Origin: the human T2T-CHM13v2.0 reference genome, Homo sapiens
Length of the DNA: 64,000 bases
Reading direction: 5' to 3' (one strand)
Assembly: GCF_009914755.1 (NCBI RefSeq)
Contig: NC_060933.1
Position numbers and translations under genes: made by a program. This document shows positions 5,681-60,559 of this stretch, one piece after another (the first letter of the stretch is position 1; each line of letters opens with the position of its first letter). Under the pieces are notes generated by a model that was not told where the DNA came from, searched no databases, and saw only the letters and a program-made list of their open reading frames with translations.

Positions 5681-6828
5681 ATTCTTTTCCATTCCATTGC
5701 AATCGAGTTGAATCCATTGCCTTTCATTCCATTCCATTCCATTACATTACATTCCGGAAGATTCCATTCCATTGCATTCCATTCCATTCCATTCCCCTGC
5801 ACTCGCGTTGATTCCATTCCATTCCATTCCATTCCATTCAATTCCATTCCATTCCATTCCTTTCTATTCCATTACGGATGACTCCATTCCATTGCATTCC
5901 ATTCCATTCCATTCCCCTGTACTCGGGTTGATTCCATTCCATTCCATTCCACTCCATTCGGTTCCGTTGCATTCCATTCTATTGCATTCCATTCTATTCG
6001 GGTTAATTCCATTCCATTCTATTCCATTCCATTCCATTCCATTCCATTGCAATGGAGTTGATTCCATTCCCTTCCATTCCATTCCGGATGATTCCATTCC
6101 ATTGCATTCCATTCCATTCCATTCCCCTGCACTCGTGTTGATTCCATTCCCTTCCATTCCATTCCATTCCGTTCCATTCCCTTCCTTTCCGTTCTATTCC
6201 GGTTAATTCCATTCCATTCCATTCCATTCCATTCCATTCCACTCCATTGCAATCGAGTTGATTCCATTCCATTCCTTTCCATTCCATTCCATTGCCTTGC
6301 ATTGCACTCGGGTTGATTCCATTCCTTTCTTCCCACTCCATTACATTCCCTTCCATTCCACTCGGAATGATTGATTCCATTCCATTCCATTCCATTTCAT
6401 TCCATTGCAATCCATTCCAATCCATTCCGTTCCATTCCATTCCACTCGAGTTGACTTCATTCCATTCCTTTCCATTCCATTCCATTCCTTTCCACTCGAG
6501 TTGATTCCATTCCATTCCATTCCATTGCATTCCATTCTATGCCATTCCACTCGGGTTGATTCCATTCCTTTGCATTCCATTCCATTCCATTGCATTCCAT
6601 TCCATTTCATTCCGTTGCATTCCATTCCATTACATTCGGATTGATTCTATTCAACTCCCTTACTGTCCATTACATTCCATTCCATTCGGCTTGTTCCATT
6701 CCATTCCATTCCATTCCACTCCATTGCATTGCACTCGGGTTGATTCCATTCCACTCCATTCCATTCCATTCCATTCCGGATGATTCCATTCCATTGCATT
6801 CCGTTCCATTACATTCCCCTGCACTCGC

Positions 6829-35549: not shown

Positions 35550-38300
35550 TCCAATCGAGTTGATTCCATTCCATTCCATTCCATTCCATTCCACTCCATT
35601 CCAGTCCTTTCCATTCCATTCCACTCGTGTTGATTCCAATGTATTCCTTTCCATTCCATTCCATTCCATTGCAATCGAGTTGATTCCATTGCTTTGCATT
35701 CCATTCCATTCCATTCCATTCCGGATGATTCCATTCCATTGCATTGCATTCCATTCCATTCCCCTGCACTCGGGTTGATACCATTCCATTCCACTCCATT
35801 CCGTTCCATTCCATTCCATTCCATTGTATTCGGGTTAATTCCATTCCATTCCATTCCATTCCATTCCATTCCATTCCATTCCATTACAATCGAGTTTATT
35901 CCATTCCATTCCATTCCATTCCAGTCCTTTCCATTCCATTCCACTCGGGTTGATTCCATTCTATTAGTTTCCATTCCATTCCATTCCCTTCCATTCCACT
36001 CTGGTTGATTCCATTCCTTTCCATTCCACTCGAATACATTCCCTCCTATTCCACTCGGAACGATTCCATTCCATTCCATTCCATTCCATTCCATTCCAAT
36101 CCATTCCATTCCATTTCGTTCCATTCCATTCCATTCCGTATCATTCCATTCCATTCCATTCCATTCCATTCCATTCCATTCCATTCCATTGTACTCGGGT
36201 TGATTCCATTCCATTGCATTCCATTCCATTCCATTCCATTCCATTCCATTCCATTCCGTTGCATTCCATTCCATTACATTCGGATTGATTCTATTCAACT
36301 CCCTTACTCTCCATTACATTCCATTCCATTCGGGTTGTTCCATTCCATTCCATTCCATTCCACTCCATTCCATTGCACTCGGGTTGATTCCATTCCTTTC
36401 CATTCCATTCCATTCCATTCCGGATGATTACTTTCCATTGCATTCCGTTCCATTACATTCCCCTGCACTCGCGTTGATTCCATTCCATTCCATTCCATTC
36501 CATTCAATTCCATTCCATTACAATTCGTTCCATTCTATTCTATTCCGTACCATTCCATTCCATTCCATGCCATTCCATTCCATTCCACTCCATTCCATTC
36601 CGTTCCATTCCGTTCCTTTCCATTCCATTCCATTCTATTCGGATTAATTCCATTCCATTCCATTCCATTCCATTCCATTCTATTCCACTCCATTGCAATC
36701 GAGTTGAATCCATTGCATTTCATTCCATTCCATTCCATTCCATTCCATTCCATTCCATTCCATTCCGGAAGTTTCCATTCCATTGCATTCCATTCCATTC
36801 CATTCCCCTGCACTCGCGTTGATTCCATTCCATTCCATTCCATTCCATTCCGTTCCCTTCCATTCCATTCCATTCCATTCCGTTCCGTTCCATTCCATTC
36901 CATTCCATTCTATTCGGGTTAATTCCATTCCATTCCATTCGATTGCAATCGAGTTGATTCCATTCCATTCCATTCCATTCCATTCCATTCCATTCCATTC
37001 CATTCCTTTCCATTCCATTACGGATGATTCCATTCCATTGCATTCCATTCCATTCCATTCCCCTGTACTCGGGTTGATTGCGTTCCATTCCATTCCAATC
37101 CATGCCATTCCACTCGTGTTGATTCCATTCTTTCCATTCCATTCAAGTTGAATCCATTCCATTACATTCCATTCAATTTGATTCCATTCGATTGCACTCG
37201 GGTTGATTCCATTCCATTACATTCCATTCCATTCAATTCCATTCCATTCCATTCCATTCCAATCCATTCCATTCCATTCCATTACATTACATTCGGATTG
37301 ATTCTATTCAATTCCCTTACAGTGCATTACATTCCATTCCATTCGGGTAGTTTCCATTCCATTCCATTCCATTCCTCTCCATTCCATTGCACTCGGGTTG
37401 ATTCCATTCCATTGCATTCCATTCCATTCCTTTCAATTCCATTCCGTTCCATTCAATTCCATTACATTCGGATTGATTCTATTCAACTCCCTTACTCTCC
37501 ATTCCATTCCATTCCATTCAGGATGTTCCATTCCATTCCATTCCATTCCACTCCATTCCATTGCACTCGGGTTGATTCCATTCCATTCCATTCCATTCCA
37601 TTCCATTCCATTCCAATTGAGTTGATTCCATTCCATTCCATTCCATTCCATTCCAGTCCTTTCCATTCCATTCCACTCGGGTTGATTCCATTCTATTAGT
37701 TTCCATTCCATTCCATTGCCTTCCATTCCACTCTGGTTGATTCCATTCCTTTCCATTCCACTCGAATACATTCCCTCCTATTCCACTCGGAACGATTCCA
37801 TTCTATTCCATTCCATTCCATTCCATTCCATTCCATTCCATTCCATTTCGTTCCATTCCATTCTATTCCGTATCATTCCATTCCATTCCATTCCATTCCA
37901 TTCCATTCCATTCCATTCCATTCCATTCCATTGTACTCGGGTTGATTCAATTCCATTGCATTCCATTCCATTCCATTCCATTCAATTCCATTCCATTCCA
38001 TTCCATTCCATTCCGTTCCATTCCATTCCATTCCATTCCATTCCGTTCCATTCCATTACATTCGGATTGATTCTTTTCAACTTCCTTTCTCTCCATTACA
38101 TTCCATTCCATTCGGATTGTTCCATTCCATTCCATTCCATTCCACTCCATTCCATTGCACTCGGGTTGATTCCATTCCATTCCATTGCATTCCATTCCGG
38201 ATGATTCCATTCCATTGCATTCCGTTCCATTACATTCCCCTGCACTCGGGTTGATTCCATTCCATTCCATTCCATTCCATTCCATTCCATTCCATTCCAT
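35550..38300 (+). repeat. ~2.7-kb segment, copy 2
   Basis: See copy 1. Also shares ccggaagtttcc, caattgagttg and gattcttttcaacttcc. Confidence 0.88.
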
Positions 38301-40050
38301 TCCATTCCATTCCCCTGCACTCGCGTTGATTCCATTCCATTCCATTCCATTCCATTCCATTCCATTCCTTTCCATTCCAGTCCTTTCCATTCCATTCCAC
38401 TCGGGTTGATTCCATTCTATTAGTTTCCATTCCATTCCATTCCCTTCCATTCCACTCTGGTTGATTCCATTCCTTTCCATTCCACTGGAATACATTCCCT
38501 CCTATTCCACTCGGAACGATTCCATTCCATTGCATTCCATTCAATTCCATTCCATTCCATTCCATTCCATTCCATTGCATTTCGTTCCATTCCATTCTAT
38601 TCCGTATCATTCCATTCCATTCCATTCCACTCGTGTTGATTTCATTCCTTTCCATTCCATTCGGTTTGAAGGCATTCCATTCCATTCCATTCCATTCCAT
38701 TCCATTCCAGTCCATTCCATTCCATTGTACTCGGGTTGATTCCATTCCATTGCATTCCATTCCATTCCATTCCATTCCATTCCGTTGCATTCCATTCCAT
38801 TTCATTCGGATTGATTCTATTCAACTCCCTTACTCTCCATTACATTCCATTCCATTCGGGTTGTTCCATTCCATTCCGTTCCATTCCACTCCATTCCATT
38901 GCACTTGGATTGATTCCATTCCATTCCATTCCATTCCATTCCATTCCATTCCATTCCATTCCGGATGATTCCATTCCATTGCATTCCGTTCCATTACATT
39001 CCCCTGCACTCGGGTTGATTCCATTCCATTCCATTCCATTCCATTCGATTCCATTCCATTCCAATTCTTTCCATTCCATTCTATTCCGTACCATTCCATT
39101 CCATTGCATACAATTCCATTCCATTCCATTCCACTCCGTTCCGTTCCGTTCCGTTCCATTCCGTTCCATTCCATTCCATTCCATTCTATTCGGTTTAATT
39201 CCATTCCATTCCATTCCATTCCATTCCATTCCATTCCATTCTATTCCATTCCATTGCAATCGATTTGAATCCATTGCATTCCATTCCATTCCATTCCATT
39301 CCATTCCGGAAGATTCCATTCCATTGCATTCCATTCCATTCCATTCCATTCCATTCCATTCCATTCCATTCCATTGTACTCGGGTTGATTCCATTCCATT
39401 GCATTCCATTCAATTCCATTCCATTCCATTCCATTCCATTCCATTCCATTCCATTCCGGATGATTCCATTCCATTGCATTCCGTTCCATTACATTCCCCT
39501 GCACTCGGGTTGATTCCATTCCATTCCATTCCATTCCATTCCATTCGATTCCATTCCATTCCCCTGCACTCGCGTTGATTCCATTCCATTCCATTCCATT
39601 CCATTCCATTCCATTCCATTCCTTTCCATTCCAGTCTTTTCCATTCCATTCCACTCGGGTTGATTCCATTCTATTAGTTTCCATTCCATTTCATTCCCTT
39701 CCATTCCACTCTGGTTGATTCCATTCCTTTCCATTCCACTCGAATACATTCCCTCCTAATCCACTCGGAACGATTCCATTCCATTCCATTCCATTCCATT
39801 CCATTCCATTTCGTTCCATTCCATTCTATTCCATATCATTCCATTCCATTCCATTCCATTCTATTCCATTCCATTCCATTCCATTCCACTCGTGTTGATT
39901 CCATTCCTTTCCATTCCATTCGGTTTGAAGGCATTCCATTCCATTCCATTCCATTCCATTCCATTCCATTCCATTGTACTCGGGTTGATTCCATTCCATT
40001 GCATTGCCTTCCATTCCATTCTATTACATTCCGTTCCATTCCATTCCATT
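38190..40050 (+). repeat. ~0.6-kb cassette repeated at ~1.26-kb spacing (38190-38800 and 39450-40050)
   Basis: cggtttgaaggc at 38662 and 39921. Same module order (cggatg, cccctgcactcggg, cccctgcactcgcg, ccagtc, ctattagttt, ggaacg). Confidence 0.7.
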
Positions 40051-43019
40051 CCGTTCCATTCCATTCCATTATATTCGGATTGATTCTATTCAATTCCCTT
40101 ACACTCCATTACATTCCATTCCATTCGGGTAGTTTCCATTCCACTCCATTAAATTCCTCTCCATTCCATTGCACTCGGGTTGATTCCATTACATTGCATT
40201 CCATTCCATTCCATTCAATTCCATTCCGTTCCATTCCATTCCATTACATTCGGATTGATTCTATTCAACTCCCTTACTCTCCATTACATTCAATTCCTTT
40301 CGAGTTGTTCCATTCCATTCCATTCCATTCCACTCCATTCCATTGCACTCGGGTTGATTCCATTCCATTCCATTCCATTCCATTCCGGAAGATTCCATTC
40401 CATTGCATTCCATTCCATTCCATTCCCCTGCACTCGCGTTGATCCCATTCCATTCCATTCCATTCCATTCCATTCCATTCCATTCCTTTCCTTTCCATTC
40501 CTTTCCATTCCATTCCATTCCATTCCAATCCATTGCATTCCGTTCCGTTCCGTTCCATTCAATTCCATTCCATTCTATTCGCGTTAATTCCATTCCATTC
40601 CATTCGATTGCAATCGAGTTGATTCCATTCCATTCTATTCCATTCCATTCCATTCCTTTCCATTCCATTACGGATGATTCCATTCCATTGCATTCCATTC
40701 CATTCCATTCTCCTGTACTCGGGTTGATTCCATTCCATTCCATTCCAATCCATGCCATTCCACTCGTGTTGATTCCATTCTTTCCATTCCATTCAAGTTG
40801 AATCCATTCCATTGCATTCCATTCCATTCCATTACCCTGCAGTCGGGTTGATTCCATTCCATTCCATTCCATTACATTCCATTCCATTGCATTCCGTTCC
40901 GTTCCATTCCATTCCATTCCATTCTATTCGGGTTAATTCCATTCCATTCCATTCCATTCCAATCGAGTTGATTCCATTCCATTCCATTCCATTCCACTCC
41001 ATTCCACTCCTTTCCATTCCACTCCACTCGGGTTGATTCCAATGTATTCCTTTCCATTCCATTCCATTCCATTGCAATCGAGTTGATTCCATTGCTTTGC
41101 ATTCCATTCCATTCCATTCCATTCCCTTCCTTTCCGTTCCATTCCATTCCATTCCATACCATTGCATTCCATTCCATTCCGTTCCATTCCGTTCCATTCC
41201 ATTCAATTCCATTCTATTCGGGTTAATCCCATTCCATTCCATTCCATTCCATTCTATTCCATTCCATTGCAACCTAGTTGAATCCATTGCATTTCATTCC
41301 ATTCCATTGCATTCCATTCCGGAAGATTCCATTCCATTGCATTCCATTCCATGCCATTCCCCTGCACTCGCGTTGATTCCATTCCATTCCATTCCATTCC
41401 ATTCCATTCCATTCCATTCCATTCCGTTAGGTTCTGTTCCATTCCATTCCATTCCGTTCCGTTCCGTTCCGTTCCGTTCCGTTCCATTCCATTCCATTCC
41501 ATTCCATTCCATTCCGTTCCGTTCCATTCCATTCCATTCCATTCCATTCCATTCCATTCCTTTCCATTCCATTACGGATGATTCCATTCCATTGCATTCC
41601 ATTCCATTCCATTCCCCTGTACTCGGGTTGATTCCATTCGATTGCATTCCAATCCATGCCCTTCCACTCTTGTTGATTCCATTCTTTCCATTCCATTCAA
41701 GTTGAATCCATTCCATTGCATTCCATTCCATTCGATTCCATTCGATTGCACTCGGGTTGATTCCATTCCATTGCATTCCATTCCATTCCATTCCATTCCA
41801 TTCCATTCCGTTCCTTTCCATTCTATTACATTCGGATTGATTCTATTCAATTCCCTTACACTCCATTAAGTTCCATTCCATTCGGGTAGTTTCCATTCCA
41901 TTCCATTCCATTCCTCTCCATTCCATTGCACTAGGGTTGATTCCATTCCATTGCATTCCATTCCATTCCATTCAATTCCATTCCGTTCCACTCCATTCCA
42001 TTACATTCGGATTGATTCTATTCAACTCCCTTTGTCCCCATTACATTTCATTCCATTCGGGTTGTTCCATTCCATTCCATTCCATTCCACTCCATTCCAT
42101 TGCACTGGGGTTTATTCCATTCCATTCTATTCCATTCCATTCCATTCCATTCCATTCCGGAAGATTCCATTCCATTGCATTCCATTCCATTCCATTCCCC
42201 TGCACTCGCGTTGATTCCATTCCATTCCATTCTATTCCATTCCATTCCTTTCGTTTCCATTCCATTCCATTCCATTCCATTCCATTCCGTTCCGTTCCGT
42301 TCCGTTCCGTTCCATTCCATTCCATTCCATTCTATTCGGGTTAATTCCATTCCATTCCATTCGATTGCAATCGAGTCGATTCCATTCCATTCCATTCCAT
42401 TCCATTCCATTCCATTCCTTTCCATTCCATTACGGATGATTCCATTCCATTGCATTCCATTCCATTCCATTCCCCTGTACTCGGGTTGATTCCATTCCAT
42501 TCCATTCCGTTCCATTCCATTCCATTCCATTCCATTCCATTCCATTCCATTCCATTCCATGCCATTCCACTCGGGTTGATTCCATTTGTTTCCATTCCAT
42601 TCGAGTTGAATCCATTCCATTCCATTCTATTCCAGTCGATTCCATTCCATTGCTCACGTGTTCATTCCATTCCATTCCATTCCATTCCATTCCATTTCGT
42701 TCCATTCCATTGTCTTCCGTAGTATTCCATTCCATTCCATTCCACTCCATTCCATGCCATTCCACTCGGGTTTATTCCATTCCTTTCCATTCCATTCGGG
42801 TTGAATTCATTCCATTCCATTCCATTCAATTCCATTACATTGCACTCGGGTTGATTCCATTCCATTCCATTCCATTTCAATCCATTCCCTTCCATTCCAT
42901 TTCATTCCATTCCATTCCATTCCATTCCATCCCATTTCATTCCATTCCATTCCATGCCATTCCACTCGGGTTGATTCCATTCCTTTCCATTCCATTCTAG
43001 TTGAACCCATTCCATTCCA

Positions 43020-43066
43020 TTCCATTCCATTCCATTCCATTGCACACGGAATGGAATGGAATGGAA
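43020..43066. other. Strand-switch (inversion) junction with perfect 19-bp inverted repeat and 9-nt spacer
   Basis: ttccattccattccattcc (43020-43038) + attgcacac + ggaatggaatggaatggaa (43048-43066). The left word cattgcacacgg(gttcattcc) is truncated at GG 43048-43049, which is also the start of the first GGAAT. Confidence 0.95.
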
Positions 43067-44979
43067 ACAACCCGAATGGAATGGAATGTAATGGAGTGTA
43101 AGGGAATTGAATACAATCAATCCGAATGTAATGGAATGGAATGGAACGGAATGAAATGGAATGGCATAGAATGGAATGGAATCAACCCGAGCGCAATGGA
43201 ATGGAATGGAATGGAATGGAATGGATTCAACCCGAATGGAATGGAAAGGAATGGAATAAACCCGAGTGAAATGACATGGAAGGGAATGGAATGGAATGGA
43301 ATGGTACGGAGTAGAATGGAATGGAACGAAATGGAATGGAATGGAATGGAATGGAATGGAATGGACCCGTGAGCAACGGAATGGAATGGAATGGAATGGA
43401 ATGGAAGGGAATGGAATGGGTTCAATTCGAATGGAATGGAAAGGAATGGAATCAACCGGAGTGCAATGGCATGGAATGGAATGGAATGGAATGGAATGGA
43501 ATGGAATGGAATGGATTCAACCCGAATGGAATGGAAAGGAATGGAATAAACCCGAGTGGAATGGCATGGAATGGAGTGGAATGGAATGGAATGGAATGGA
43601 ATGGAATGGAATGGAATGGAATGGAATTAACCCTAATAGAATGGAATGGAATGGAATGGAATGGAATGGAAGGGAATGGAATGGAATGGAATGGAATGGA
43701 ATGGAATTAACACGAATAGAATGGAATGGAATGCAATGGAATGGAATGAAATGGAATCAACTCGATTTCAATGGAATGGAATGGAATGGAATGGAATGGA
43801 AGGGAATGGAATGAAATTAACCCGAATAGAATGGAATGGAATGGAATGGAATGGAATGGAATGGAATAGAATGGAATCCAACCGAGTGCAGTGGAATGGA
43901 ATGGAATGGAATGCAATGGAATGGAATCATACGGAATGGAATGGAATGGAATGGAATGAAATGGAATGGAATGCAATGGAATGGAATGGAATAAACCCGA
44001 GTGGAATGGCATGGAATGGAGTGGAATGGAATTGAATGGAAGGGAATGGTACGGAATAGAATGGAATGGAACGAAATGGAATGGAATGGAATGGAATGGA
44101 ATGGAATGAACCCGTGAGCAATTGAATGGAATCGAATGGAATGGAATGCAATGGAATGGATTCAACTAGAATGGAATGGAAAGGAGTGGAATCAACCCGA
44201 GTGGAATGGCATGGCATGGAATGGAATGCAATGGAATGGAAAGGAATGGTATGGAATAGAATGGAATGGAACGAAATGGAATGGAATGGAATGGAATGCA
44301 ATGGAATGGAATGGAATACAATGGAATCCACCCGATTGCAGAGGAATGGAATGGAATGGAATGGAATGGAATGGAATGGAATGGATTCAACCCGAATGGA
44401 ATGGAAAGGAATGGAATCAACCCGAGTGGATTGGCATGGAATGGAATGGAATGGAATGGAATGGTAGGGAATAGAATGGAATGGAACGAAATGGAATGGA
44501 ATGGAATGGAATGGAATTGAATGGAATGGAATCAACCTGAGTGCAATGGAATGGAGTGGAAGGGAATGTAATGGAACGGAAACAACACGAATGGAATGGA
44601 ATGTAATGGAGTGTAACGGAATTGAATACAATCAATCCGAATGTAATGGAATGGAATGGAACGGAATGGAATGGAATGCAATGGAATGGAAAAGAATGGA
44701 ATGGAATGAAATGGAATGGCAGGGAATGGAATGGAATCAACCCGAGTGCAATGGAATGGAATAGAATGGAATGGAATGGAATGGAATGGATTCAACCCGA
44801 ATGGAAGGGAAAGGAATGGAATAAACCCGAGTGGAATGGCATGGAATGGAATGGAATGCAATGGAATGGTACGGAATAGAATGGAATGGAACGAAATGGA
44901 ATGGAATGGAATGGAATGGAATGGAATGGAAAGGAATGGAATCAACCTGAGTGCAATGGAATGGAATGGAATGGAATGG

Positions 44980-45495
44980 AATGGAATGGAATGGAAACAA
45001 CCCGAATGGAATGGAATGGAATGGAGTGTAAGGAATTGAATACAATCAATCCGAATGTAATGGAATGGAATGGAACAGAATGGAATGGAATGGAATACAG
45101 TGGAATGGATTCAAACCTAGTGCAATGGAATGGAATGGAATGGAATGGAATGGAATGGAATGGATTGGATTCAAAACAAATGGAATGGAAAGCAATAGAA
45201 TCAACCCGAGTGGAATGGCATGGAATGGAATGGAATCGAATGGAATGGAATGGAAACAACCCGAATGGAATGGAATGGAATGGAGTGTAAGGAATTGAAT
45301 ACAATCAATCCGAATGTAATGGAATGGAATGGAACAGAATGGAATGGAATGGAATACAGTGGAATGGATTCAAACCTAGTGCAATGGAATGGAATGGAAT
45401 GGAATGGAATGGAATGGAATGGATTGGATTCAAAACAAATGGAATGGAAAGCAATAGAATCAACCCGAGCGGAATGGCATGGAATGGAATGGAAT
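44980..45495 (-). repeat. 259-bp tandem duplication (2 copies)
   Basis: ggaaacaacccg at 44993 and 45252; ORFs 45065/45324. Both copies share private variants gtgtaaggaattg, ggaacagaa, atacagtgg, tcaaacctag and tcaaaacaaat. Confidence 0.92.
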
Positions 45496-46534
45496 GGAAT
45501 GGAATGGAATGGTACGGAATAGAATGCAATGGAACGAAATGGAATGGAATGGAATGGAATGGAACGGAATGGAATGGAATCATCTCGATTGCAATGGAAT
45601 GTAATGGAATGCAATGGAATTAACGCGAATAGAATGGAACGGAATGGAATGGAATGGGATGGAATGGAATCAATCCGAGTGCAGGGGAATGGAATGGAAT
45701 GGAATGCAATGGAATGGAATGTAATGGAATGGAATGCAATGGAATGGAATGGAATGGAATGGAATGCAATGGAATCAACTCGATTGCAATGGGATGGAAT
45801 GGAATGGAATGGAATGGAATGGAAGGGAATGGAATGGAATGGAATTAACCTGAACAGAATGGAATGGAATGGAATGCAACGGAATGGAATGGAATGGAAT
45901 GGAATGGAATGGAATCAACCCGATTGCAATGGAATGGAGTGGAATGGAATGGAATGGAATGGAAACAACCCGAATGGAATGGAATGTAATGGAGTGTAAG
46001 GGAATTGAATAGAATCAATACGAATGTAATGGAATGGAATGGAACGGAATGGAATGCAATGGAATGGAATGCAATGCAATGGAATGGGATCAACCCGAGT
46101 GTAATGGAATGGAATCGAAAGGAATGGAATGGAATGGAATGGTTTCAACCCGAATGGAATGGAAAGGAATGGAATCATCCCGAGTGGAATGGAATGGAAT
46201 GGAATGGAATGGAATGGAATGGAATGAACCCGTGTGCAATGTAATGGAATCGTATGGAATGGAATGGAATGGAATGGAATGGATTCAAGTCGAATGGAAT
46301 GGAAAGGAATGGAATCAACCCGAGTGGAATGGCATGGAATGGAATGGAATGAAATGGAATGGAATGGAATGGAATGGTACGGAATAGAACGGAATGAAAC
46401 GAAATGGAATGGAATGGAATGTAATGGAAAGGAATGGAATGGAATCAACCCGAGTGCAGGGGAATGGAATGGAATGGAAGGCAATGGAATGCAATCATCC
46501 GGAATTGAATGAAATGGAATGGAATGGAATGGAA

Positions 46535-49500
46535 TCAACTCGATTGCAATGGAATGTAATGGAATGGAATGGAATGGAATTAACCCTAATAGAATGGAAT
46601 GGAATGGAATGGAAGGGAATGGAATGGAATGGAATGGAATGGAATTAACCGGAATAGAATGCAATGGAATGGAATGGAATGGAATGGAATGGAATGGAAT
46701 GAAATGGAATCAACTCGATTTCAATGGAATGGAATGGAATGCAATGGAATGGAATGGAATGGAATGGAATGAAATTAACCCGAATAGAATGGAATGGAAT
46801 GGAATGGAATGGAATGGAATGGAATGGAATGGAATAGAGTGGAATGGAATGGAATGGAATAGAATGGAATCCACCCGAGTGCAAGGGAATGGAATGGAAT
46901 GGAATGGAATGCAATGGAATGGAATCATACGGAATGGAATGGAATGGAATGGAATGGAATCCATCCGATTGCAATGGAATGGAGTGGAATGGAATGGAAT
47001 GGAATGGAAACAACCCGAATGGAATGGAATGTAATGGAGAGTAAGGGAATTGAATAGAATCAATACGAATGTAATGGAATGGAATGGAACGGAATGGAAT
47101 GCAATGGAATGGGATCAACCCGAGTGAAATGGAATGGAATCGAAAGGAATGGAATGGAATGGAATGGTTTCAACCCGAATGGAATGGAAAGGAATGGAAT
47201 CAACCCGAGTGGAATGGAATGGAATGGAATGGAATGGAATGGAATGGAATGGGTTCAACTCGAATGGAATGGAAAGGAATGGAATCAACCCGAGTGGAAT
47301 GGCATGGAATGGAATGGAATGGAATGGAATGGAATGGAATGGAAGGGAATGGAATGGAATGGAATTAACCTGAACAGAATGGAAGGGAATGGAATGGAAC
47401 GGAACGGAATGGAATGGAATGGAATGGAATGGAATGGAATGCAATTGAATGGGATCAACCCGAGTACAGGGGAATGGAATGCAATGGAATGCAATGGAAT
47501 GGAATCATCCGGAATGGAATGGAATGGAATGGAATGCAATGGAATGGAATCAATCAACCCGAGTGCAATAGAATGCAGTGGAATGGAATGGAATGGTATG
47601 GAAACTACCCGAATGGAATAGAATGTAATGGAGTGTAAGGGAATTAAAAAGAATCAATCCGAATGTAATGGAATTGAATGGAACGGAATGGAATGGAATG
47701 GAATGGAATGGAATGGAATGGAATGGAATGGAATTAACCCGAATAGAATGGAATGGAATGGAATGGAAGTAAATGGAATGGAATGTAATGAACCCGAGTG
47801 CAGGGGAATGGAATGGAATGGAATGCAATGGAATGGAGTCATCCGGAATGGAACAGAAAGGAATGGAATGGAATCAACCCGTGTGCAATGGAATGGAAAG
47901 GAATGGAATGGAATGGAATGGAATGAAATGCAATGGAATGGATTCAACCCGAATGGAATGGAAAGGAAGGGAATCAACCCAAGTGGAATGGCATGGAATG
48001 GAATGGAATGGAATGGAATGGAATGGAATGGTACCGAATAGAATGGAATGGAACGAAATGGAATAGAATGGAATGGAATGGAATGGAATCAACCCGAGTG
48101 CAATGGAATGGAGTGGAATGGAAGGGAATGACATGGAAAGAACCCGAATGGAATGGAATGAAATGGAGTGTAAGGGAATTGAATACAATCAATCCGAATG
48201 TAATGGAATGGAATGGAACGGAATGGAATGGAATGGAATGGAATGGAATGGAATGCAGTGCAATGGAATCAAACCTAGTGCAATGGAATGGAATGGAATG
48301 GAATGGAATGGAATGGATTCAACCCAAATGGAATGGAAAGCAATGGAATCAACCCGAGTGGAATGGCATGGAATGGAATGGAATGGAATGGAATGGAATG
48401 GATTGGAATGGAATGGAATGGAATGGTACGGAATAGAATGGAAGGGAACGAAATGGAATGGAATGGAATGGAATGGAACGGAATGGAATGGAATCAACTC
48501 GATTGCAATGGAATGTAATGGAATGGAATGGAATGCAATTATCGCGAATAGAATGGAATGGAATGGAACGGAATGGAATGGAATGGAATGGAATGGAATC
48601 GAATGGAATCAACCTGAGTGCAGGGGAATGGAATGGAATGGAATGCAATGGAATGTAATGGAATGGAATGCAATGGAATTAACTCGATTGCAATGGGATG
48701 GAATGGAATGGAATGGAAGGGAAAGGAATAGAAAGGAATTAACCTGAACAGAATGGAATGGAATGGAATGGAACGGAATGGAATGGAATGGGTTCAACTC
48801 GAATGGAATGGAAAGGAATGGAATCAACACGAGTGGAATGGCATGGAATGGAATGGAATGGAATGGAATGGAATGGAATGGAAAGGAATGGAAAGGAATG
48901 GAATGGAATGAAATGTAATGGAATGGAATGGAATGGAATCAACCCGAGTGCAGTGTAATGGAATCGAATGGAATGGAATGGAATGGAATGGATTCAACAC
49001 GAATGGAATGGAAAGGAATGGAATAAACCCGCGTGGAATGGCATGGAATGGAGTGGAATGGAATGAAATGTAAAGGAATGGAATGGAATGGAATCAACCC
49101 GAGTGCAATGTAATGGAATCGAATGGAATGGAATGGAATGGAATGGATTCAACCCGAATGGAATGGAAAGGAATGGAATAAACCCGAGTGGAATGGCATG
49201 GAATGGAATGGAATGGAATGGAATGGAATGGAATGGTACGGAATAGAATGGAATGGAACGAAATGGAATGGAATGGAATGGAATGGAACGGAATGGAATG
49301 GAATCAACTCGATTGCAATGGAATGTGATGGAATGGAATGGAATGCAATTAACGCGAATAGAATGGAATGGAATGGAATGGAACGGAATGGAATGGAATG
49401 GAATGGAATGGAATCGAATGGAATCAACCTGAGTGCAGGGGAATGGAATGGAATGGAATGCAATGGAATGTAATGGAATGGAATGCAATGGAATGAACTC

Positions 49501-52500
49501 GATTGCAATGGGATGGAATGGAATGGAATGGAAGGGAAAGGAATAGAATGGAATTAACCTGAACAGAATGGAATGGAATGGAATGGAACGGAATGGAATG
49601 GAACGGAATGGAATGGAATGGAATGGAATGAACCCGTGTGCAATGAAATGGAATGGAATGGAATGGAATGGAATGGAATGGAAACATCCCGAGTGCATGG
49701 TAATGGAATGGAATGAAAGGCAATGGAATGGAATCATCCGGAATGGATTGGAATGGAATGGAATGGAATGGAATGGAATCAACTCGATTGCAATGGAATG
49801 GAATGGAATGGAATGGAATGGAATGGAATGGAATTAACCCGAATAGAATCGAATGGAATGGAATGGAATGGAATGGAATGGAATGGAAGGGAATGGAATG
49901 TAATGGAATGGAATGGAATTAACCCGAATAGAATGGAATGGAACGTAAAGGAAGGGAATGGAATGTAATCAACTCGAGTGCAGGGGAAAGCAAAGCAATG
50001 GAATGAAATGGAATGGAGTCATACGGAATGGAAGGGAATGGAATGGAATCAACCAGAGTGCAATGGAATGGAGTGGAATGGAATGGAATAGAATGGAAAC
50101 AACACGAATGGAATAGAATGTATTGGAGTGTAAGGGAATTGAATAGAATCAATAGAATCAATCAATCAATCCGAATGTAATTGAATGGAACGGAAAGGAA
50201 TGGAAAGGAATGGAATGGAATGGAATGGAATGGAATGGAATGGAATGAAATGGAATGGCATGGAATGGAATGGAATCAACCCGAGTTCAATGGAATTGAA
50301 TGGAATGGAATGGAATGGAACGGAATGGAATGGAATGGAATCAACTCGATTGCAATGGAATGGAAAGGAATGGAATGGAATGGAATGGAATGGAATGGAA
50401 TGGAATGGAATGGAATTAACCCTACTAGAATGGAATGGAATGGAATGGAATGGAATAGAATGGAATGGAAGGGAATGGAATGGAATGGAATGGAATGGAA
50501 TTAACCCGAATAGAATGGAATGGAATGGAATGGAATGGAATGGAATGGAATGGAATCAACTCGATTTGAATGGAATGGAATGAAATGGAATGGAATGCAA
50601 TGGAAGGGAATGGAATGGAATGGAATGATATTAACCCGAATAGAATGGAATGGAATGGAATGGAATGGAATGGAATGGAATGGAATAGAATGGAATCCAC
50701 CCGAGTGCAGGGGAATGGAATGGAATGGAATGCAATGGAATGGAATCATACGGAATGGAATGGAATGGAATGGAATGCAATGGAATGGAATGGAATCAAC
50801 CCGATTGCAATGGAATGGAGTGGAATGGAATGGAATGGAATGGAAACAACTCGAATGGAATGGAATGTAATGGAGAGTAAGGGAATTGAATAGAATCAAT
50901 ACGAATGTAATGGAATGGAATGGAACGGAATGGAATGCAATGGAATGGAATGGAATGCAATGGAATGGGATCAACCCGAGTGAAATGGAATGGAATCGAA
51001 AGGAATGGAATGGAATGGAATGGTTTCAACCCGAATGGAATGGAAAGGAATGGAATCAACCCGAGTGGAATGGAATGGAATGGAATGGAATGGGTTCAAC
51101 TCGAATGGAATGGAAAGGAATGGAATCAACCCGAGTGGAATGGCATGGAATGGAATGGAATGGAATGGAATGGAATGGAAGGGAATGGAATGGAATGGAA
51201 TTAACCTGAACAGAATGGAAGGGAATGGAATGGAACGGAACGGAATGGAATGGAATGGAATGGAATGGAATGGAATGCAATGGAATGGGATCAACCCGAG
51301 TACAGGGGAATGGAATGCAAGGGAATGCAATGGAATGGAATCATCCGGAATGGAATGGAATGGAATGGCATGCAATGGAATGGAATCAATCAACCCGACT
51401 GCAATAGAATGCAGTGGAATGGAATGGAATGGTATGGAAACTACCCGAATGGAATAGAATGTAATGGAGTGTAAGGGAATTAAAAAGAATCAATCCGAAT
51501 GTAATGGAATTGAATGGAACGGAATGGAATGGAATGGAATGGAATGGAATGGAATGGAATGGAATTAACCCGAATAGAATGGAATGGAATGGAATGGAAT
51601 GGAATGGAAGTAAATGGAATGGAATGTAATGAACCCGAGTGCAGGGGAATGGAATGGAATGGAATTCAATGGAATGGAGTCATCCGGAATGGAACAGAAA
51701 GGAATGGAATGGAATCAACCCGTGTGCAATGGAATGGAAAGGAATGGAATGGAATGGAATGGAATGGAATGGAATGGAATGGATTCAACCCGAATGGAAT
51801 GGAAAGGAAGGGAATCAACCCAAGTGGAATGGCATGGAATGGAATGGAATGGAATGGAATGGAATGGAATGGTTCCGAATAGAATGGAATGGAACGAAAT
51901 GGAATAGAATGGAATGGAATGGAATGGAATCAACCCGAGTGCAATGGAATGGAGTGGAATGGAAGGGAATGACATGGAAACAACCCGAATGGAATGGAAT
52001 GAAATGGAGTGTAAGGGAATTGAATACAATCAATCCGAATGTAATGGAATGGAATGGAACGGAATGGAATGGAATGGAATGGAATGGAATGCAGTGGAAT
52101 GGAATCAAACCTAGTGCAATGGAATGGAATGGAATGGAATGGAATGGAATGGATTCAACCCAAATGGAATGGAAAGCAATGGAATCAACCCGAGTGGAAT
52201 GGCATCGAATGGAATGGAATGGAATGGAATGGAATGGATTGGAATGGAATGGAATGGAATGGTACGGAATAGAATGGAATGGAACGAAATGGAATGGAAT
52301 GGAATGGAATGGAACGGAATGGAATGGAATCAACTCGATTGCAATGGAATGTAATGGAATGGAATGGAATGCTATTATCGCGAATAGAATGGAATGGAAT
52401 GGAATGGAACGGAATGGAATGGAATGGAATGGAATGGAATCGAATGGAATCAACCTGAGTGCAGGGGAATGGAATGGAATGGAATGCAATGGAATGTAAT

Positions 52501-55500
52501 GGAATGGAATGCAATGGAATCAACTCGATTGCAATGGGATGGAATGGAATGGAATGGAAGGGAAAGGAATAGAATGGAATTAACCTGAACAGAATGGAAT
52601 GGAATGGAATGGAACGGAATGGAATGGAACGGAATGGAATGGAATGGAATGGAATGAACCCGTGTGCAATGGAATGGAATGGAATGGAATGGAATGGAAT
52701 GGAATGGGTTCAACTCGAATGGAATGGAAAGGAATGGAATCAACACGAGTGGAATGGCATGGAATGGAATGGAATGGAATGGAATGGAATGGAAAGGAAT
52801 GGAATGGAATGAAATGTAATGGAATGGAATGGAATGGAATCAACCCGAGTGCAGTGTAATGGAATCGAATGGAATGGAATGGAATGGAATGGATTCAACA
52901 CGAATGGAATGGAAAGGAATGGAATAAACCCGCGTGGAATGGCATGGAATGGAGTGGAATGGAATGAAAAGTAAAGGAATGGAATGGAATGGAATCAACC
53001 AGAGTGCAAAGTAATGGAATCGAATGGAATGGAATGGAATGGAATGGATTCAACCCGAATGGAATGGAAAGGAATGGAATAAAACCGAGTGGAATGGCAT
53101 GGAATGGAATGGAATGGAATGGAATGGAATGGAATGGAATGGAATGGAATGGAATGGTACGGAATAGAATGGAATGGAACGAAATGGAATGGAATGGAAT
53201 GGAATGGAACGGAATGGAATGGAATCAACTCGATTGCAATGGAATGTGATGGAATGGAATGGAATGCAATTAACGCGAATAGAATGGAATGGAATGGAAT
53301 GGAACGGAATGGAATGGAATGGAATGGAATGGAATCGAATGGAATCAACCTGAGTGCAGGGGAATGGAATGGAATGGAATGCAATGGAATGTAATGGAAT
53401 GGAATGCAATGGAATGAACTCGATTGCAATGGGATGGAATGGAATGGAATGGAAGGGAAAGGAATAGAATGGAATTAACCTGAACAGAATGGAATGGAAT
53501 GGAATGGAACGGAATGGAATGGAACGGAATGGAATGGAATGGAATGGAATGAACCCGTGTGCAATGAAATGGAATGGAATGGAATGGAATGGAATGGAAT
53601 GGAAACAACCCGAGTGCATGGTAATGGAATGGAATGAAAGGCAATGGAATGGAATCATCCGGAATGGATTGGAATGGAATGGAATGGAATGGAATGGAAT
53701 CAACTCGATTGCAATGGAATGGAATGGAATGGAATGGAATGGAATGGAATGGAATGGAATTAACCCGAATAGAATCGAATGGAATGGAATGGAATGGAAT
53801 GGAATGGAATGGAATGGAAGGGAATGGAATGTAATGGAATGGAATGGAATTAACCCGAATAGAATGGAATGGAACGTAAAGGAAGGGAATGGAATGTAAT
53901 CAACTCGAGTGCAGGGGAAAGCAATGCAATGGAATGAAATGGAATGGAGTCATACGGAATGGAAGGGAATGGAATGGAATCAACCAGAGTGCAATGGAAT
54001 GGAGTGGAATGGAATGGAATAGAATGGAAACAACACGAATGGAATAGAATGTATTGGAGTGTAAGGGAATTGAATAGAATCAATAGAATCAATCAATCAA
54101 TCCGAATGTAATTGAATGGAACGGAAAGGAATGGAATGCAATGGAATGGAATGGAATGGAATGGAATGGAATGAAATGGAATGGCATGGAATGGAATGGA
54201 ATCAACCCGAGTTCAATGGAATTGAATGGAATGGAATGGAATGGAACGGAATGGAATGGAATGGAATCAACTCGATTGCAATGGAATGGAAAGGAATGGA
54301 ATGGAATGGAATGGAATGGAATGGAATGGAATTAACCCTACTAGAATGGAATGGAATGGAATGGAATGGAATGGAATAGAATGGAATGGAAGGGAATGGA
54401 ATGGAATGGAATGGAATGGAATTAACCCGAATAGAATGGAATGGAATGGAATGGAATGGAATGGAATGGAATGGAATGGAATCAACTCGATTTGAATGGA
54501 ATGGAATGAAATGGAATGGAATGCAATGGAAGGGAATGGAATGGAATGGAATGATATTAACCCGAATAGAATGGAATGGAATGGAATGGAATGGAATGGA
54601 ATGGAATGGAATAGAATGGAATCCACCCGAGTGCAGGGGAATGGAATGGAATGGAATGCAATGGAATGGAATCATACGGAATGGAATGGAATGGAATGGA
54701 ATGCAATGGAATGGAATGGAATCAACCCGATTGCAATGGAATGGAGTGGAATGGAATGGAATGGAATGGAAACAACTCGAATGGAATGGAATGTAATGGA
54801 GAGTAAGGGAATTGAATAGAATCAATACGAATGTAATGGAATGGAATGGAACGGAATGGAATGCAATGGAATGGAATGGAATGCAATGGAATGGGATCAA
54901 CCCGAGTGAAATGGAATGGAATCGAAAGGAATGGAATGGAATGGAATGGTTTCAACCCGAATGGAATGGAAAGGAATGGAATCAACCCGAGTGGAATGGA
55001 ATGGAATGGAATGGAATGGGTTCAACTCGAATGGAATGGAAAGGAATGGAATCAACCCGAGTGGAATGGCATGGAATGGAATGGAATGGAATGGAATGGA
55101 ATGGAATGGAAGGGAATGGAATGGAATGGAATTAACCTGAACAGAATGGAAGGGAATGGAATGGAACGGAACGGAATGGAATGGAATGGAATGGAATGGA
55201 ATGGAATGCAATGGAATGGGATCAACCCGAGTACAGGGGAATGGAATGCAATGGAATGCAATGGAATGGAATCATCCGGAATGGAATGGAATGGAATGGC
55301 ATGCAATGGAATGGAATCAATCAACCCGACTGCAATAGAATGCAGTGGAATGGAATGGAATGGTATGGAAACTACCCGAATGGAATAGAATGTAATGGAG
55401 TGTAAGGGAATTAAAAAGAATCAATCCGAATGTAATGGAATTGAATGGAACGGAATGGAATGGAATGGAATGGAATGGAATGGAATGGAATGGAATTAAC

Positions 55501-58200
55501 CCGAATAGAATGGAATGGAATGGAATGGAATGGAATGGAAGTAAATGGAATGGAATGTAATGAACCCGAGTGCAGGGGAATGGAATGGAATGGAATGCAA
55601 TGGAATGGAGTCATCCGGAATGGAACAGAAAGGAATGGAATGCAATCAACCCGTGTGCAATGGAATGGAAAGGAATGGAATGGAATGGAATGGAATGGAA
55701 TGGAATGGAATGGAATGGATTCAACCCGAATGGAATGGAAAGGAAGGGAATCAACCCAAGTGGAATGGCATGGAATGGAATGGAATGGAATGGAATGGAA
55801 TGGAATGGAATGGTACCGAATAGAATGGAATGGAACGAAATGGAATAGAATGGAATGGAATGGAATGGAATCAACCCGAGTGCAATGGAATGGAGTGGAA
55901 TGGAATGGAATGACATGGAAACAACCCGAATGGAATGGAATGAAATGGAGTGTAAGGGAATTGAATACAATCAATCCGAATGTAATGGAATGGAATGGAA
56001 CGGAATGGAATGGAATGGAATGGAATGCAGTGGAATGGAATCAAACCTAGTGCAATGGAATGGAATGGAATGGAATGGAATGGAATGGAATGGAATGGAT
56101 TCAACCCAAATGGAATGGAAAGCAATGGAATCAACCCGAGTGGAATGGCATGGAATGGAATGGAATGGAATGGAATGGAATGGAATGGAATGGAATGGTA
56201 CGGAATAGAATGGAATGGAATGAAATGGAATGGAATGGAATGGAATGGAACGTAATGGAATGGAATCAACTCGATTGCAATGGAATGTAATGGAATGGAA
56301 TGGAATGCAATTAACGAGAATAGAATGGAATGGAACGGAATGGAATGGAATGGAATGGAATGGAATCGAATGGAATCAACCTGAGTGCAGGGGAATGGAA
56401 TGGAATGGAATGCAATGGAATGTAATGGAATGGAATGCAATGGAATCAACTCGATTGCAATGGGATGGAATGGAATGGAATGGAAGGGAAAGGAATAGAA
56501 TGGAATTAACCTGAACAGAATGGAATGGAATGGAATGGAACGGAATGGAATGGAAGGGAATGGAATGGAATGGAATGGAATGAACCCGTGTGCAATGGAA
56601 TGGAATGGAATGGAATGGAATGGAATGGAATGGGTTCAACTCGAATGGAATGGAAAGGAATGGAATCAACACGAGTGGAATGGCATGGAATGGAATGGAA
56701 TGGAATGGAATGGAATGGAATGGAATGAAATGTAATGGAATGGAATGGAATGGAATCAACCCGAGTGCAGTGTAATGGAATGGAATGGAATGGAATGGAA
56801 TGGAATGGATTCAACACGAATGGAATGGAAAGGAATGGAATAAACCCGCGTGGAATGGCATGGAATGGAGTGGAATGGAATGAAATGTAAAGGAATGGAA
56901 TGGAATGGAATCAACCCGAGTGCAATGTAATGGAATCGAATGGAATGGAATGGAATGGAATGGATTCAACCCGAATGGAATGGAAAGGAATGGAATAAAC
57001 TCGAGTGGAATGGCATGGAATGGAATGGAATGGAATGGAATGGAATGGAATGGAATGGAATAGAATGGTACGGAATAGAATGGAATGGAAAGAAATGGAA
57101 TGGAATGGAATGGAATGGAACGGAATGGAATGGAATCAACTCGATTGCAATGGAATGTGATGGAATGGAATGCAATGCAATTAACGCGAATAGAATGGAA
57201 TGGAATGGAATGGAACGGAATGGAATGGAATGGAATGGAATGGAATGGAATCGAATGGAATCAACCTGAGTGCAGGGGAATGGAATGGCATGGAATGCAA
57301 TGGAATGTAATGGAATGGAATGCAATGGAATCAACTCGATTGCAATGGGATGGAATGGAATGGAATGGAAGGGAAAGGAATAGAATGGAATTAACCTGAA
57401 CAGAATGGAATGGAATGGAATGGAACGGAATGGAATGGAACGGAATGGAATGGAATGGAATGGAATGAACCCGTGTGCAATGAAATGGAATGGAATGGAA
57501 TGGAATGGAATGGAATGGAAACAACCCGAGTGCATGGTAATGGAATGGAATGAAAGGCAATGGAATGGAATCATCCGGAATGGAATGGAATGGAATGGAA
57601 TGGAATGGAATGGAATCAACTCGATTGCAATGGAATGGAATGGAATGGAATGGAATGGAATGGAATGGAATGGAATGGAATTAACCCGAATAGAATCGAA
57701 TGGAATGGAATGGAATTGAATGGAATGGAATGGAATGGAAGAGAATGGAATGTAATGGAATGGAATGGAATTAACCCGAATAGAATGGAATGGAACGGAA
57801 AGGAAGGGAATGGAATGTAATCAACTCGAGTGCAGGGGAAAGCAATGCAATGGAATGAAATGGAATGGAGTCATACGGAATGGAAGGGAATGGAATGGAA
57901 TCAACCAGAGTGCAATGGAATGGAGTGGAATGGAATGGAATAGAATGGAAACAACACGAATGGAATAGAATGTATTGGAGTGTAAGGGAATTGAATAGAA
58001 TCAATAGAATCAATCAATCAATCCGAATGTAATTGAATGGAATGGAAAGGAATGGAATGGAATGGAATGGAATGGAATGGAATGGAATGGAATGGAATGA
58101 AATGGAATGGCATGGAATGGAATGGAATCAACCCGAGTTCAATGGAATGGAATGGAATGGAATGGAATGGAATGGAATGGAATCAACTCGATTGCAATGG
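46535..58200 (-). repeat. ~3.9-kb higher-order repeat, three tandem copies (starts ~46535, 50341, 54267; ~3806, 3926, 3916 bp)
   Basis: Markers aattaaaaagaatc (~47643/51478/55409), ggaagtaaatgg, gcaggggaaagca and aatagaatcaatcaatcaatcc (~50151/54082/58003). ORF triplet 49919/53850/57771. Confidence 0.92.
50156..50171 (+). repeat. (AATC)4 micro-repeat within a 17-bp insertion, one per 3.9-kb unit (also 54087-54102 and 58008-58023)
   Basis: gaatagaatcaatagaatcaatcaatcaatccgaatg versus the usual gaatagaatcaatccgaatg. Confidence 0.9.
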
Positions 58201-60559
58201 AATGGAATGGAATGGAATAGAATGGAATGGAATGGAATGGAATGGAATGGAATGGAATGGAATGGAATGGATTCAACCCGAATGGAATGGAAAGGATGGG
58301 AATCAACCCAAGTGGAATGGCATGGAATGGAATGGATTTGAATGGAATGGAATGGAATGGTACCGAATAGAATGGAATGGAAGGAAATGGAATAGAATGG
58401 AATGGAATGGAATGCAATCAACCTGAGTGCAATGGAATGGAGTGGAATGGATTGGAATGGAATGGAAACAACCTGAATGGAATGGAATGAAATGGAGAGT
58501 AAGGGAATTGAATACAATCAATTCGAATGTAATGGAATGGAATGGAATGGAACGGAATGGAAAGGAATGGAATGGAATGGAATGCAGTTGAATGGAATCA
58601 AACCTAGTGCAATGGAATAGAATGGAATGGAATGGAATGGAATGGAATGGAATGGAATGGAATGGATTCAACCCAAATGGAATGGAAAGCAATGGAATCA
58701 ACCCGAGTGGAATGGCATGGAATGGAATGGAATGGAATGGTATGGAATAGAATGCAATGGAACGAAATGGAATGGAATGGAATGGAATGGAATGGAATGG
58801 AATGGAATGGAATCATTCCGAGTGGAATAGAAGGGAATGAATTCCAGTGGAATGGAAAGGAATGGAATCAACCAGAGTGGAATGGAAGGGAATGGAATGG
58901 AATGGAAACTAATAAAATGGAATCAACACGAGTGGAATGGAATGGAAAGGACTTGAATGGAATGGAATGGAATGGAATGGAATGGAATCAGCTCGATTGC
59001 AATGGAACGTAAGTGAATGGAATGGAATGGAATTAACGCGAATAGAATGGAATGGAATGGAATGGAATGGAATGGAATGGAATGGAATGGAATCAACCTG
59101 AGTGCAGGGGAATGGAATGCAATGGAATGGAATGGAATGGAATGCAATGGAATCAACTAGATTGCAATGGAATGGAATGGAATGGAATGGAATGGAATGG
59201 AATGGAATGGAATGGAACGGAATTAACCTGAACAGAATGGAATGGAATGGAATGGAATGGAATGGAATGGAACGGAATGGAATGGAATGGAATGGAATGG
59301 AATCAACCCGAGTGCAGGGGAATGGAATGGAATGGAATGCAATGGAATGGAATCATCCGGAATGGAATGGAATGGAATGGAATGCAATGGAATGGAATCA
59401 ATCAACCCGAGTGCAATGCAATGGAGTGTAATGGAATCGAATGGAATGGAAACTACCCGAATGGAATGGAATGTAATGGAGTGTAAGGGAATTGAAAAGA
59501 ATCAATCCGAATGTAATGGAATGGAATGGAACGGAATGAAATGGAATGGCATGGAATGGAATGGAATCAAACCGAGTGCAATGGAATGGAATTGAACGGA
59601 ATGGAATGGAAAGGAATGGATTCAACCCGAATGGAATGGAAAGGAATGGAAAAAACCCGAGTTTAATGGCATGGAATGGAATGAAATGGAGTGGAATGGA
59701 ATGGAATGGAATGGAATGGTACGGAATAGAATGGAATGGAACGAAATGGAATAGAATGGAATGGAAAGGAATGGAATGAAAACGTGTGCAATGGATTGGA
59801 ATGGAATGGAATGGAATGGAATGGAATGGAATGGAATGGGTTCGACTCGAATGGAATGGAATGGAATGGAATCAACCCGAGTGGAATGGCATGGAATGGA
59901 ATGGAATGGAATGGAATGGAATGGAATGGAATGGAAACAACACGAGTGCAATGTTATGGAATCGAATGGAATGGAATGGAATGGAATGGATTCAACCCGA
60001 ATGGAATGGAAAGGAATGGAATAAACCCGAGTGCAATGGCATGGAATGGAGTCTAATGGAATGGAATGGAATGGAATGGTATGGAATAGAATGGAATGGA
60101 ACGAAATGGAATGGAATGGAATGGAATGGAATGAAATGAACCCGTGTGCAATGGAATGGAATGGAATGGAATGGAATGGAATGGAATGGGTTCTACTCGA
60201 ATGGAATGGAAAGCAATGGAATCAACCCGAGTAGAATGGCATGGAATGGAATGGAATGGAATGGAATGGAATGGAATGGAATGGAATGGAATGGTACGGA
60301 ATAGAATGGAATGGAGCGAAATGGAATGGAATGGAATGGAATGGAATGGAATGGAATGGAATGGAATGGAATGGAATGGAATAAACCCGAGTGCAATGGA
60401 ATGGAGTGGAATGGAATGGAATGGAATGGAACAACCCGAATGGAATGGAATGTAATGGAGAGTAAGGGAGTTGAATAGAATCAATCCGAATGTAATGGAA
60501 TGGAATGGAAAGGAATGAAATTGAATGGAATGGAATGGAATGCAATGGAATGGAATCAA

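What the first reader, a model, noticed from the sequence alone, without database searches (positions are those of the whole stretch)
42490..60430. Mirror architecture A-B|B'-A': two HSat3 subtypes symmetric about the inversion
Seen: subtype A (most of 1-42490 and 60380-64000) carries 1-bp-short words cgggttgttcc and ccattctttcc, plus caagttgaatcc, tacggatga and cggaagattcc. Subtype B (42560-43047 and 43048-60320) uses cgggttgtttcc, gcacacgggttc, ccgtacc and cgggttgaatcc and lacks those A words. Read in CATTC orientation, both arms run A to B toward the junction. The left B stub (42560-43047) has the same module order as the reverse complement of ~59780-60245. The left A-to-B switch falls at a homologous module position (between cctgtactcggg and ccatgcc). 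Inference: the array may be built from tens-of-kb A+B super-units, with this inversion breakpoint inside B, i.e. an organisational level above the usual higher-order repeat.
Basis: partly seen in the sequence, partly recalled or inferred. Interest (0 to 1): 0.75.

Follow-up and report, generated by a model that had tools for sequence, protein, structure and literature searches.

The report
One satellite fold-back copied 85 times

Summary
The two HSat3 subtypes are real. A words: 0 hits in 42,500-60,350 and 255 outside; B words: 72 inside and 4 outside. Both A/B boundaries fall at homologous module positions. The mirror is not real: the B arms are 0.5 and 17.3 kb, and the stub is no closer to the proposed partner than to other patches. 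There is no fixed A+B super-unit: spacing between seams is 1-733 kb, CV 0.99. What is real lies at array scale. The seam at 43,048 has 85 copies (78 exact over 35 bp), all in chr9:52.3-76.4 Mb. Four seam families give 178 of at least 219 strand switches. This family sits in B on both sides; the 11-copy family sits in A. In 9 of 14 testable copies, rare variants recur mirrored about 0.65-1.3 kb across the seam, so it likely began as one fold-back in B, was amplified, and had its B flanks trimmed by exchange with A. The more than 200 switches are known. I did not find the seam-family census in the papers I could open; the Science version and supplements were not available.

The parts
1..42440 (+). 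Subtype A HSat3 (CATTC on +), the bulk type of the array. Holds four short B-like patches (about 1-600, 4,090-4,730, 9,430-9,960, 17,420-17,945) and an 8.0-kb tandem duplication (6,829-14,823 / 14,815-22,809).
42431..42603 (+). Left A-to-B switch zone, at a module that A and B share. The same switch is in the copies at chr9:55.31 and 56.21 Mb (3 of 10 loci read).
42560..43047 (+). B stub. Likely the inner part of the roughly 1.2-kb unpaired centre of the ancestral fold-back.
43037..43071 (.). Head-to-head strand-switch seam, family H1. 85 copies in chr9:52.34-76.36 Mb. The two G at 43,048-43,049 can be read as part of either arm.
43048..60330 (-). Subtype B arm, 17.3 kb, with an internal repeat of about 3.95 kb period (47.0-58.2 kb).
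60330..60436 (-). Right A/B switch zone, also at a homologous module position.
60437..64000 (-). Subtype A on the minus strand. It continues for at least 40 kb beyond the window with no strand switch.

Best explanation
The window holds one of 85 near-identical copies of a single strand-switch junction of the chr9 HSat3 array, which likely formed once as a fold-back (inverted duplication with a roughly 1.2-kb unpaired centre) inside the minority subtype B and was likely spread by repeated large duplications. Shown: the copy number, B context at this family, A context at the second head-to-head family, variable arm lengths, and mirrored variants across the seam in other copies. Inferred: replication or repair switched templates over 2-4 bases of microhomology and copied back along the same strand. 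Duplications of tens of kb to megabases then carried the seam with its B flanks, in both orientations. Unequal exchange with the expanding, derived subtype A at homologous modules cut the B flanks to different lengths. Here it left 0.5 kb on one side, inside the old unpaired centre, and 17.3 kb on the other. A-B|B-A is thus a B island around an inherited seam, most likely a neutral relic of array growth.
For: 85 hits, 78 exact over 35 bp, all on chr9, control 0. 14 distinct copies share B words on both sides and differ by 0.4% in the 70 collapsed bases of the right arm (15 rows, the window's copy twice). 152 of 185 neighbouring catalogued seams alternate in polarity, as true switches must. Four rare variants lie at mirrored places on both arms in 9 of 14 testable copies, offset 1,187-1,202 bp in five; they have 0 hits in 126 kb of A and 8 in 37 kb of other B; collinear exact matches agree. 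No reciprocal seam found (0 hits). Six A-private states (49-85 hits each in 98 kb of A) have 0 hits in 39 kb of B; two are 1-bp deletions out of pentamer register. At the proximal array edge the B marker starts at 49.126 Mb and the A marker at 49.288 Mb. 29 of 29 seams in 52.3-60.7 Mb have a same-orientation partner 8.7-8.8 or 10.6 Mb away, matching the known 9qh+ duplication.
Against: The mirrored variants were picked by eye from these same loci. B is itself modular: one control B stretch matched the arm end at 97% over 329 bases, so an inversion between near-identical neighbouring units would look similar. 5 of 14 copies lack the mirror, including this window's. Ten of the loci were the best matches to this copy, not a random draw. 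B is no closer than A to the outer edge or to chr5 HSat3 by 21-mer sharing (0.03-0.04 for both), and B-B sharing (0.25-0.35) is only a little below A-A (0.32-0.38), so 'B is older' is modestly supported. Flanks were read for only 1 of 52 T1 and 1 of 30 T2 seams. The B map covers only the first 100 of 925 marker hits.
Confidence: 0.75

Rival explanations
1. Same amplified single seam, but born as one end of an ordinary two-breakpoint inversion between similar B units; the partner breakpoint was lost or has diverged.
For: B modules recur, so arm-to-arm similarity can arise without fold-back (control 97% over 329 bases). At least 33 seams are uncatalogued and could include the partner.
Against: Predicted reciprocal seam: 0 hits (exact match, assumed continuation). 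The arms of the T1, T2 and two minor seams read are not the continuations of the H1 arms. The mirror offset is constant near 1.19 kb in five copies.
Confidence: 0.15
2. One reading: the array is built of tens-of-kb A+B super-units arranged in mirror about inversion points.
For: B clusters at H1 seams (44 of 63 markers within 20 kb), so B-seam islands do recur through the array.
Against: Seam-to-seam arms run 1.2-733 kb, CV 0.99 (n=152). B arms run 0.5 to over 50 kb. No inverted homology at mirror positions in the window. A|A seams exist. B occurs without the seam.
Confidence: 0.04
3. B sequence is a hotspot where inversions recur independently at the same motif.
For: All H1 copies read are in B, and microhomology could favour one site.
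Against: Copies share the seam to the base and about 70 bases of flank on each side, including the rare tagttgaacc variant. 29 are explained by one known duplication. Other families lie in A.
Confidence: 0.03
4. The seam and its B flanks are kept or favoured because they do something, for example as stable hairpin or double-stranded RNA sources in stress-induced SatIII transcripts, or as duplication start points.
For: One family gives 85 of at least 109 head-to-head seams, although B is a minority (rough estimate 12-15% of the array).
Against: No functional data. An early origin plus duplication explains the dominance. Switch number scales with array length, r=0.90 (10.64898/2026.07.22.740206).
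Confidence: 0.03

Closest known systems
HSat3B5 array of chr9q12 with more than 200 inversion breakpoints (Altemose et al., bioRxiv 10.1101/2021.07.12.452052; passages and section 8 read)
   Same: Same array and same strand switches. My minimum of 219 fits 'over 200'.
   Different: The passages seen count breakpoints but do not group them by sequence or describe sub-lineages within B5. The Science version and the supplements were not available. I recall, unverified, that breakpoint classes amplified by duplication may be mentioned there.
Population surveys of chr9 strand switches (10.64898/2026.07.22.740206, passages and section 6; 10.64898/2026.09.03.749043, passages)
   Same: Switch number scales with array length (r=0.90); about 129 switches per haplotype; spread along the array.
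   Different: The first calls them randomly placed stochastic byproducts of expansion. Here up to 81% (178 of at least 219) fall in four sequence families, so most look like copies of a few seams.
[quoted passage not shown]
   Same: Seam positions reproduce it: 52.3-60.7 Mb recurs 8.7-10.6 Mb further on; this window's seam pairs with the one at 55.31 Mb.
   Different: It explains only 29 of the 85 copies; about 56 remain after collapsing it.
Layered expansion of alpha satellite and nested tandem repeats in HSat2,3
   Same: A derived variant fills the array; a variant with ancestral states lies at the proximal edge; multi-kb local periods (8.0 and 3.95 kb) occur.
   Different: B also persists as internal islands around an inherited seam, and no fixed higher-order period exists.
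Fold-back inverted duplications with a short unpaired spacer (template switching, breakage-fusion-bridge; recalled, no call)
   Same: Inverted arms, a spacer, a few bases of microhomology, no reciprocal junction.
   Different: Here it lies inside a modular satellite, where similarity of neighbouring units can mimic it, and it is amplified 85-fold.

Membership tests
HSat3 | Diverged (CATTC)n pentamer array | tested here: met
   About 100-116 pentamers per kb, 52-54% of bases
HSat3B5 | Location in the large chr9 pericentromeric block | tested here: met
   chr9:65.84-65.91 Mb; B5 is the main subfamily there (PMC4022460 passage)
HSat3B5 | Assignment by the published subfamily-specific k-mers, for A and B separately | not testable with these tools
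   The k-mer sets were not at hand. B could score as another subfamily; one B-marker hit is on chr5
Higher-order or macro-repeat unit (A+B super-unit) | Recurring unit of near-constant length and content | tested here: not met
   Seam spacing CV 0.95-0.99; B arms 0.5 to over 50 kb
Large palindrome or mirror at window scale | Collinear inverted homology at matching distances from the centre | tested here: not met
   No such chain; stub not closest to the proposed partner
Amplified single-origin junction | Base-identical seam with shared flanks in many places | tested here: met
   78 of 85 exact over 35 bp; 14 of 14 cores share both flanks
Fold-back inverted duplication | One arm is an inverted copy of the other beyond a short spacer | tested here: met
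   9 of 14 copies, offset near 1.19 kb in five; not in this window's copy; variants chosen after inspection
Fold-back inverted duplication | No reciprocal breakpoint | tested here: inconclusive
   0 hits for one exact predicted pattern; at least 33 seams uncatalogued
Layered satellite expansion | Older, more divergent layers at both array edges | tested here: inconclusive
   Proximal edge runs divergent, then B, then A. At the distal end only two 2-kb samples: A at 76.50 Mb, degenerate at 76.66 Mb

The most novel reading that the evidence does not exclude
The 200-plus 'inversions' of the largest human satellite array are not hundreds of events but copies of about four ancestral seams. The commonest is a single fold-back that shelters islands of an older HSat3 layer from homogenisation. 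The seams form a barcode from which the duplication history of 9q12 can be read and aligned between people, and this has not been described.
Probability: 0.4. Interest if true: 0.62.

Novelty: new variant of a known kind. Interest (0 to 1): 0.42.

Why it matters
The chr9 HSat3 block varies from under 1 to 28 Mb between people and inversions inside it were left out of one population analysis as too hard to align. If most strand switches are copies of a few seams, they are landmarks: four short patterns already recover the known multi-megabase duplication. They make the question of how this array grew directly testable, and refine the view that switches are stochastic byproducts. An A/B split inside HSat3B5 would extend layered expansion from alpha satellite to HSat3. 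No function is shown.

Tried and rejected
A self-BLAST of the raw window timed out and was replaced by k-mer chains on pentamer-collapsed sequence. A generic tail-to-tail pattern found only 7 chr9 sites and made me think such seams were all different; family patterns then gave 52 and 30 copies, so I dropped that idea. A generic head-to-head pattern was cut at 100 of 648 rows but revealed family H2. A 21-mer near the right boundary (13 hits) is not a boundary marker: in 4 of 4 other contexts read it lies inside B. Module-diversity runs were flawed (best-match skipping; threshold too loose) and are not used; the strict recount is (A: 128 copies, top two types 55%, 2.7% from the nearest; B: 39 copies, 28%, 5.0%). 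No date is given for the seam: 7 mismatches in 85 x 35 bases are too few and filtered. An even, array-wide sample was not obtained; one search is 16 hand-picked stretches of 2-3 kb. Ten literature searches listed no paper on seam families or B5 sub-lineages.

Full report
1. Observation. The window is HSat3 throughout, CATTC on + up to 43,047 and GAATG after it. Two classes are real. Unsupervised clustering of 64 1-kb bins isolates 17 of 17 bins of 43-60 kb plus 4 of the other 47; the best 17-bin block starts at 43,001 with 220 discriminating 11-mers against at most 64 within left A. Eight A words give 0 hits in 42,500-60,350 and 255 outside; seven B words give 72 and 4. Both A/B boundaries fall in modules the two classes share, which is what homologous exchange would leave (inference).

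2. No mirror. B measures 0.5 kb on the left and 17.3 kb on the right. The stub aligns best to 48.6-49.4 kb (388) and 43.5-44.3 kb (368); the proposed partner near 60 kb scores 320, like B-like patches inside A (324). The long repeats in the window are direct: 8.0 kb in A and about 3.95 kb in B.

3. The seam is a family. A 201-bp query gave 40 full-length matches at 90-100% among 40 scored of 1,048 candidates. A 35-bp pattern gave 85 hits, 78 exact and 7 with one mismatch, 49 forward and 36 reverse, all in chr9:52.34-76.36 Mb, control 0; an 18-bp exact pattern gave 82 of the same sites. I call it H1. A second head-to-head family, H2, has 11 copies. Two tail-to-tail patterns have 52 (T1) and 30 hits (T2); 8 minor seams come. 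Of 186 catalogued seams, 152 of 185 neighbouring pairs alternate in polarity; the other 33 imply missing seams, so the total is at least 219, in line with the published 'over 200'. The four families are at most 81% of all seams, and H1 at most 85 of 109 head-to-head ones.

4. Subtype context. All 14 distinct H1 cores aligned carry B words on both sides. Of 10 loci read to 900 bp, 7 stay B on the left and 3 (this one, 55.31 and 56.21 Mb) switch to A at about 0.5 kb; these were the best matches to this copy. H2 is A|A in 11 of 11. The one T1 and one T2 seam read are A-like on both sides; one minor seam is B|A. A B marker has 925 hits genome-wide and the first 100 were listed: 1 on chr5, 28 at 49.13-49.34 Mb, 8 at 51.34-51.41 Mb, 63 at 52.28-53.47 Mb. 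Of the 63, 44 lie within 20 kb of H1 against 23% of bases; 8 of the 9 other seams there have no marker within 10 kb. The 36 hits at 49 and 51 Mb have no H1 seam nearby, though an uncatalogued head-to-head seam lies somewhere in 51.07-52.13 Mb. At 0.22-0.29 markers per kb of B, B would be about 3-4 Mb, 12-15% of the array; this is rough, since 825 hits were not located. An A marker has 9,230 hits.

5. No super-unit. Distances between opposite seams run 1.2-733 kb, median 89 kb, CV 0.99 (n=152). B arms at H1 run from 0.5 kb to about 56 kb on the left and from about 1 to 17 kb on the right.

6. Which subtype is derived. Six A-private states have 49-85 hits each in 98 kb of A and none in 39 kb of B from four places; none in 3 kb of chr5 HSat3; one hit in 2 kb of the outer edge. 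Two are 1-bp deletions that break the pentamer register (1.6-1.8 shifts per kb in A, 0.2-0.8 in B). A also keeps most in-register forms. The proximal edge runs divergent sequence (49.06 Mb), B (from 49.13), A (from 49.29). A shared 33-bp module is more varied in B (5.0% against 2.7%). Against: 21-mer sharing with the outer edge and chr5 is 0.03-0.04 for both classes, and B-B sharing is only slightly below A-A. So A is derived; that B is an older layer is likely but not shown.

7. How the seam formed. In other copies the right arm ends in sequence that recurs, mirrored, on the left arm beyond a spacer. Collinear exact matches show it. Four rare variants sit at mirrored places in 9 of 14 testable copies: offset 1,187-1,202 bp in five, 1,302 in one, 650-850 in three. 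Two copies have them on the right only, and three, including this window's, on neither arm. Background: 0 hits in 126 kb of A, 8 in 37 kb of other B. The variants were chosen by eye, and one control B stretch matched the arm end as well as true left arms did. A predicted reciprocal seam has 0 hits. From the usual continuation of the modules, the arms share 2-4 bases at H1 and 4-5 at H2, T1 and T2 (inference). T2 also looks folded back, with a centre near 130 bp (93-96% identity, one copy). The best reading is one microhomology-mediated fold-back in B. So a small mirror existed in the ancestor, but not the one proposed, and this copy has lost it.

8. How it spread. All 29 H1 seams in 52.3-60.7 Mb have a same-orientation partner 8.69-8.83 Mb (12) or 10.58-10.66 Mb (17) away, with smoothly drifting offsets (the offset windows were set). 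This is the known 9qh+ duplication (PMC9186530, passages). About 56 copies remain, in both orientations, so earlier direct and inverted duplications are inferred.

9. Literature. Known: over 200 breakpoints (10.1101/2021.07.12.452052, passages and section 8; PMC10813616, passages); about 129 per haplotype (10.64898/2026.09.03.749043, passages); count proportional to length and 'stochastic byproducts' (10.64898/2026.07.22.740206, passages and section 6). Passages of PMC4022460, PMC11526998, 10.64898/2026.07.27.740875, 10.64898/2026.05.15.725544 and 10.64898/2026.01.27.702063 added nothing on seam classes. Ten searches (listings only) showed no paper on seam families or sub-lineages in this array. 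The Science paper and the 2022 HSat review were not held and preprint supplements were not seen; these may already describe breakpoint classes, which I recall vaguely but could not check.

10. Verdict. The mirror and super-unit readings fail. The subtype split and its link to the seam hold and lead to a testable picture: a few ancestral seams, one of them a likely fold-back in B, copied through the array. Interest 0.42, held down by possible prior description and no sign of function.

Noticed in passing
chr9:52.3-60.7 Mb versus 61.0-71.35 Mb (seam lists): Seam positions give approximate limits of the 9qh+ duplication. The offset jumps from about 8.8 to 10.6 Mb near 54.5-54.9 Mb, implying about 1.8 Mb of extra sequence near 63.4-65.4 Mb in the second copy.
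   Followed up: partly
L023 (chr9:65,837,556), 6.4 kb left of the window: Nearest tail-to-tail seam, family T1 (52 hits), with a near-palindromic core. It could be one origin or recurrent; flanks were read in one copy only.
   Followed up: partly
L012 (chr9:52,957,876): The T2 seam looks like a fold-back with a centre near 130 bp (93-96% arm identity over 430-500 collapsed bases).
   Followed up: partly
window 1-600, 4090-4730, 9430-9960, 17420-17945; also L046, L050, L053: A short B-like cassette (with ttgttgaatc and gggatgtttc words) embedded in A and found at distant sites of the array; possibly a third lineage or a fixed A/B recombinant.
   Followed up: no
window bins 5001, 8001, 16001, 23001, 30001-39001, 60001: A separate module set inside A forms the second principal component and a third cluster at k=3.
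   Followed up: no
L042 (chr9:49.06 Mb) and L051 (chr9:76.66 Mb): The outer edges of the array are more divergent: a distinct module set proximally and a decayed CACTC-rich pentamer tract distally.
   Followed up: no
L057 (chr9:73.44 Mb): B-like sequence far from any catalogued H1 seam (about 0.5 Mb), lacking several B words of this window; perhaps another sub-lineage.
   Followed up: no
L046 (chr9:50.44 Mb): Minus-strand HSat3 proximal to the first catalogued seam (51.07 Mb), so further seam types exist in 49.6-51 Mb.
   Followed up: no
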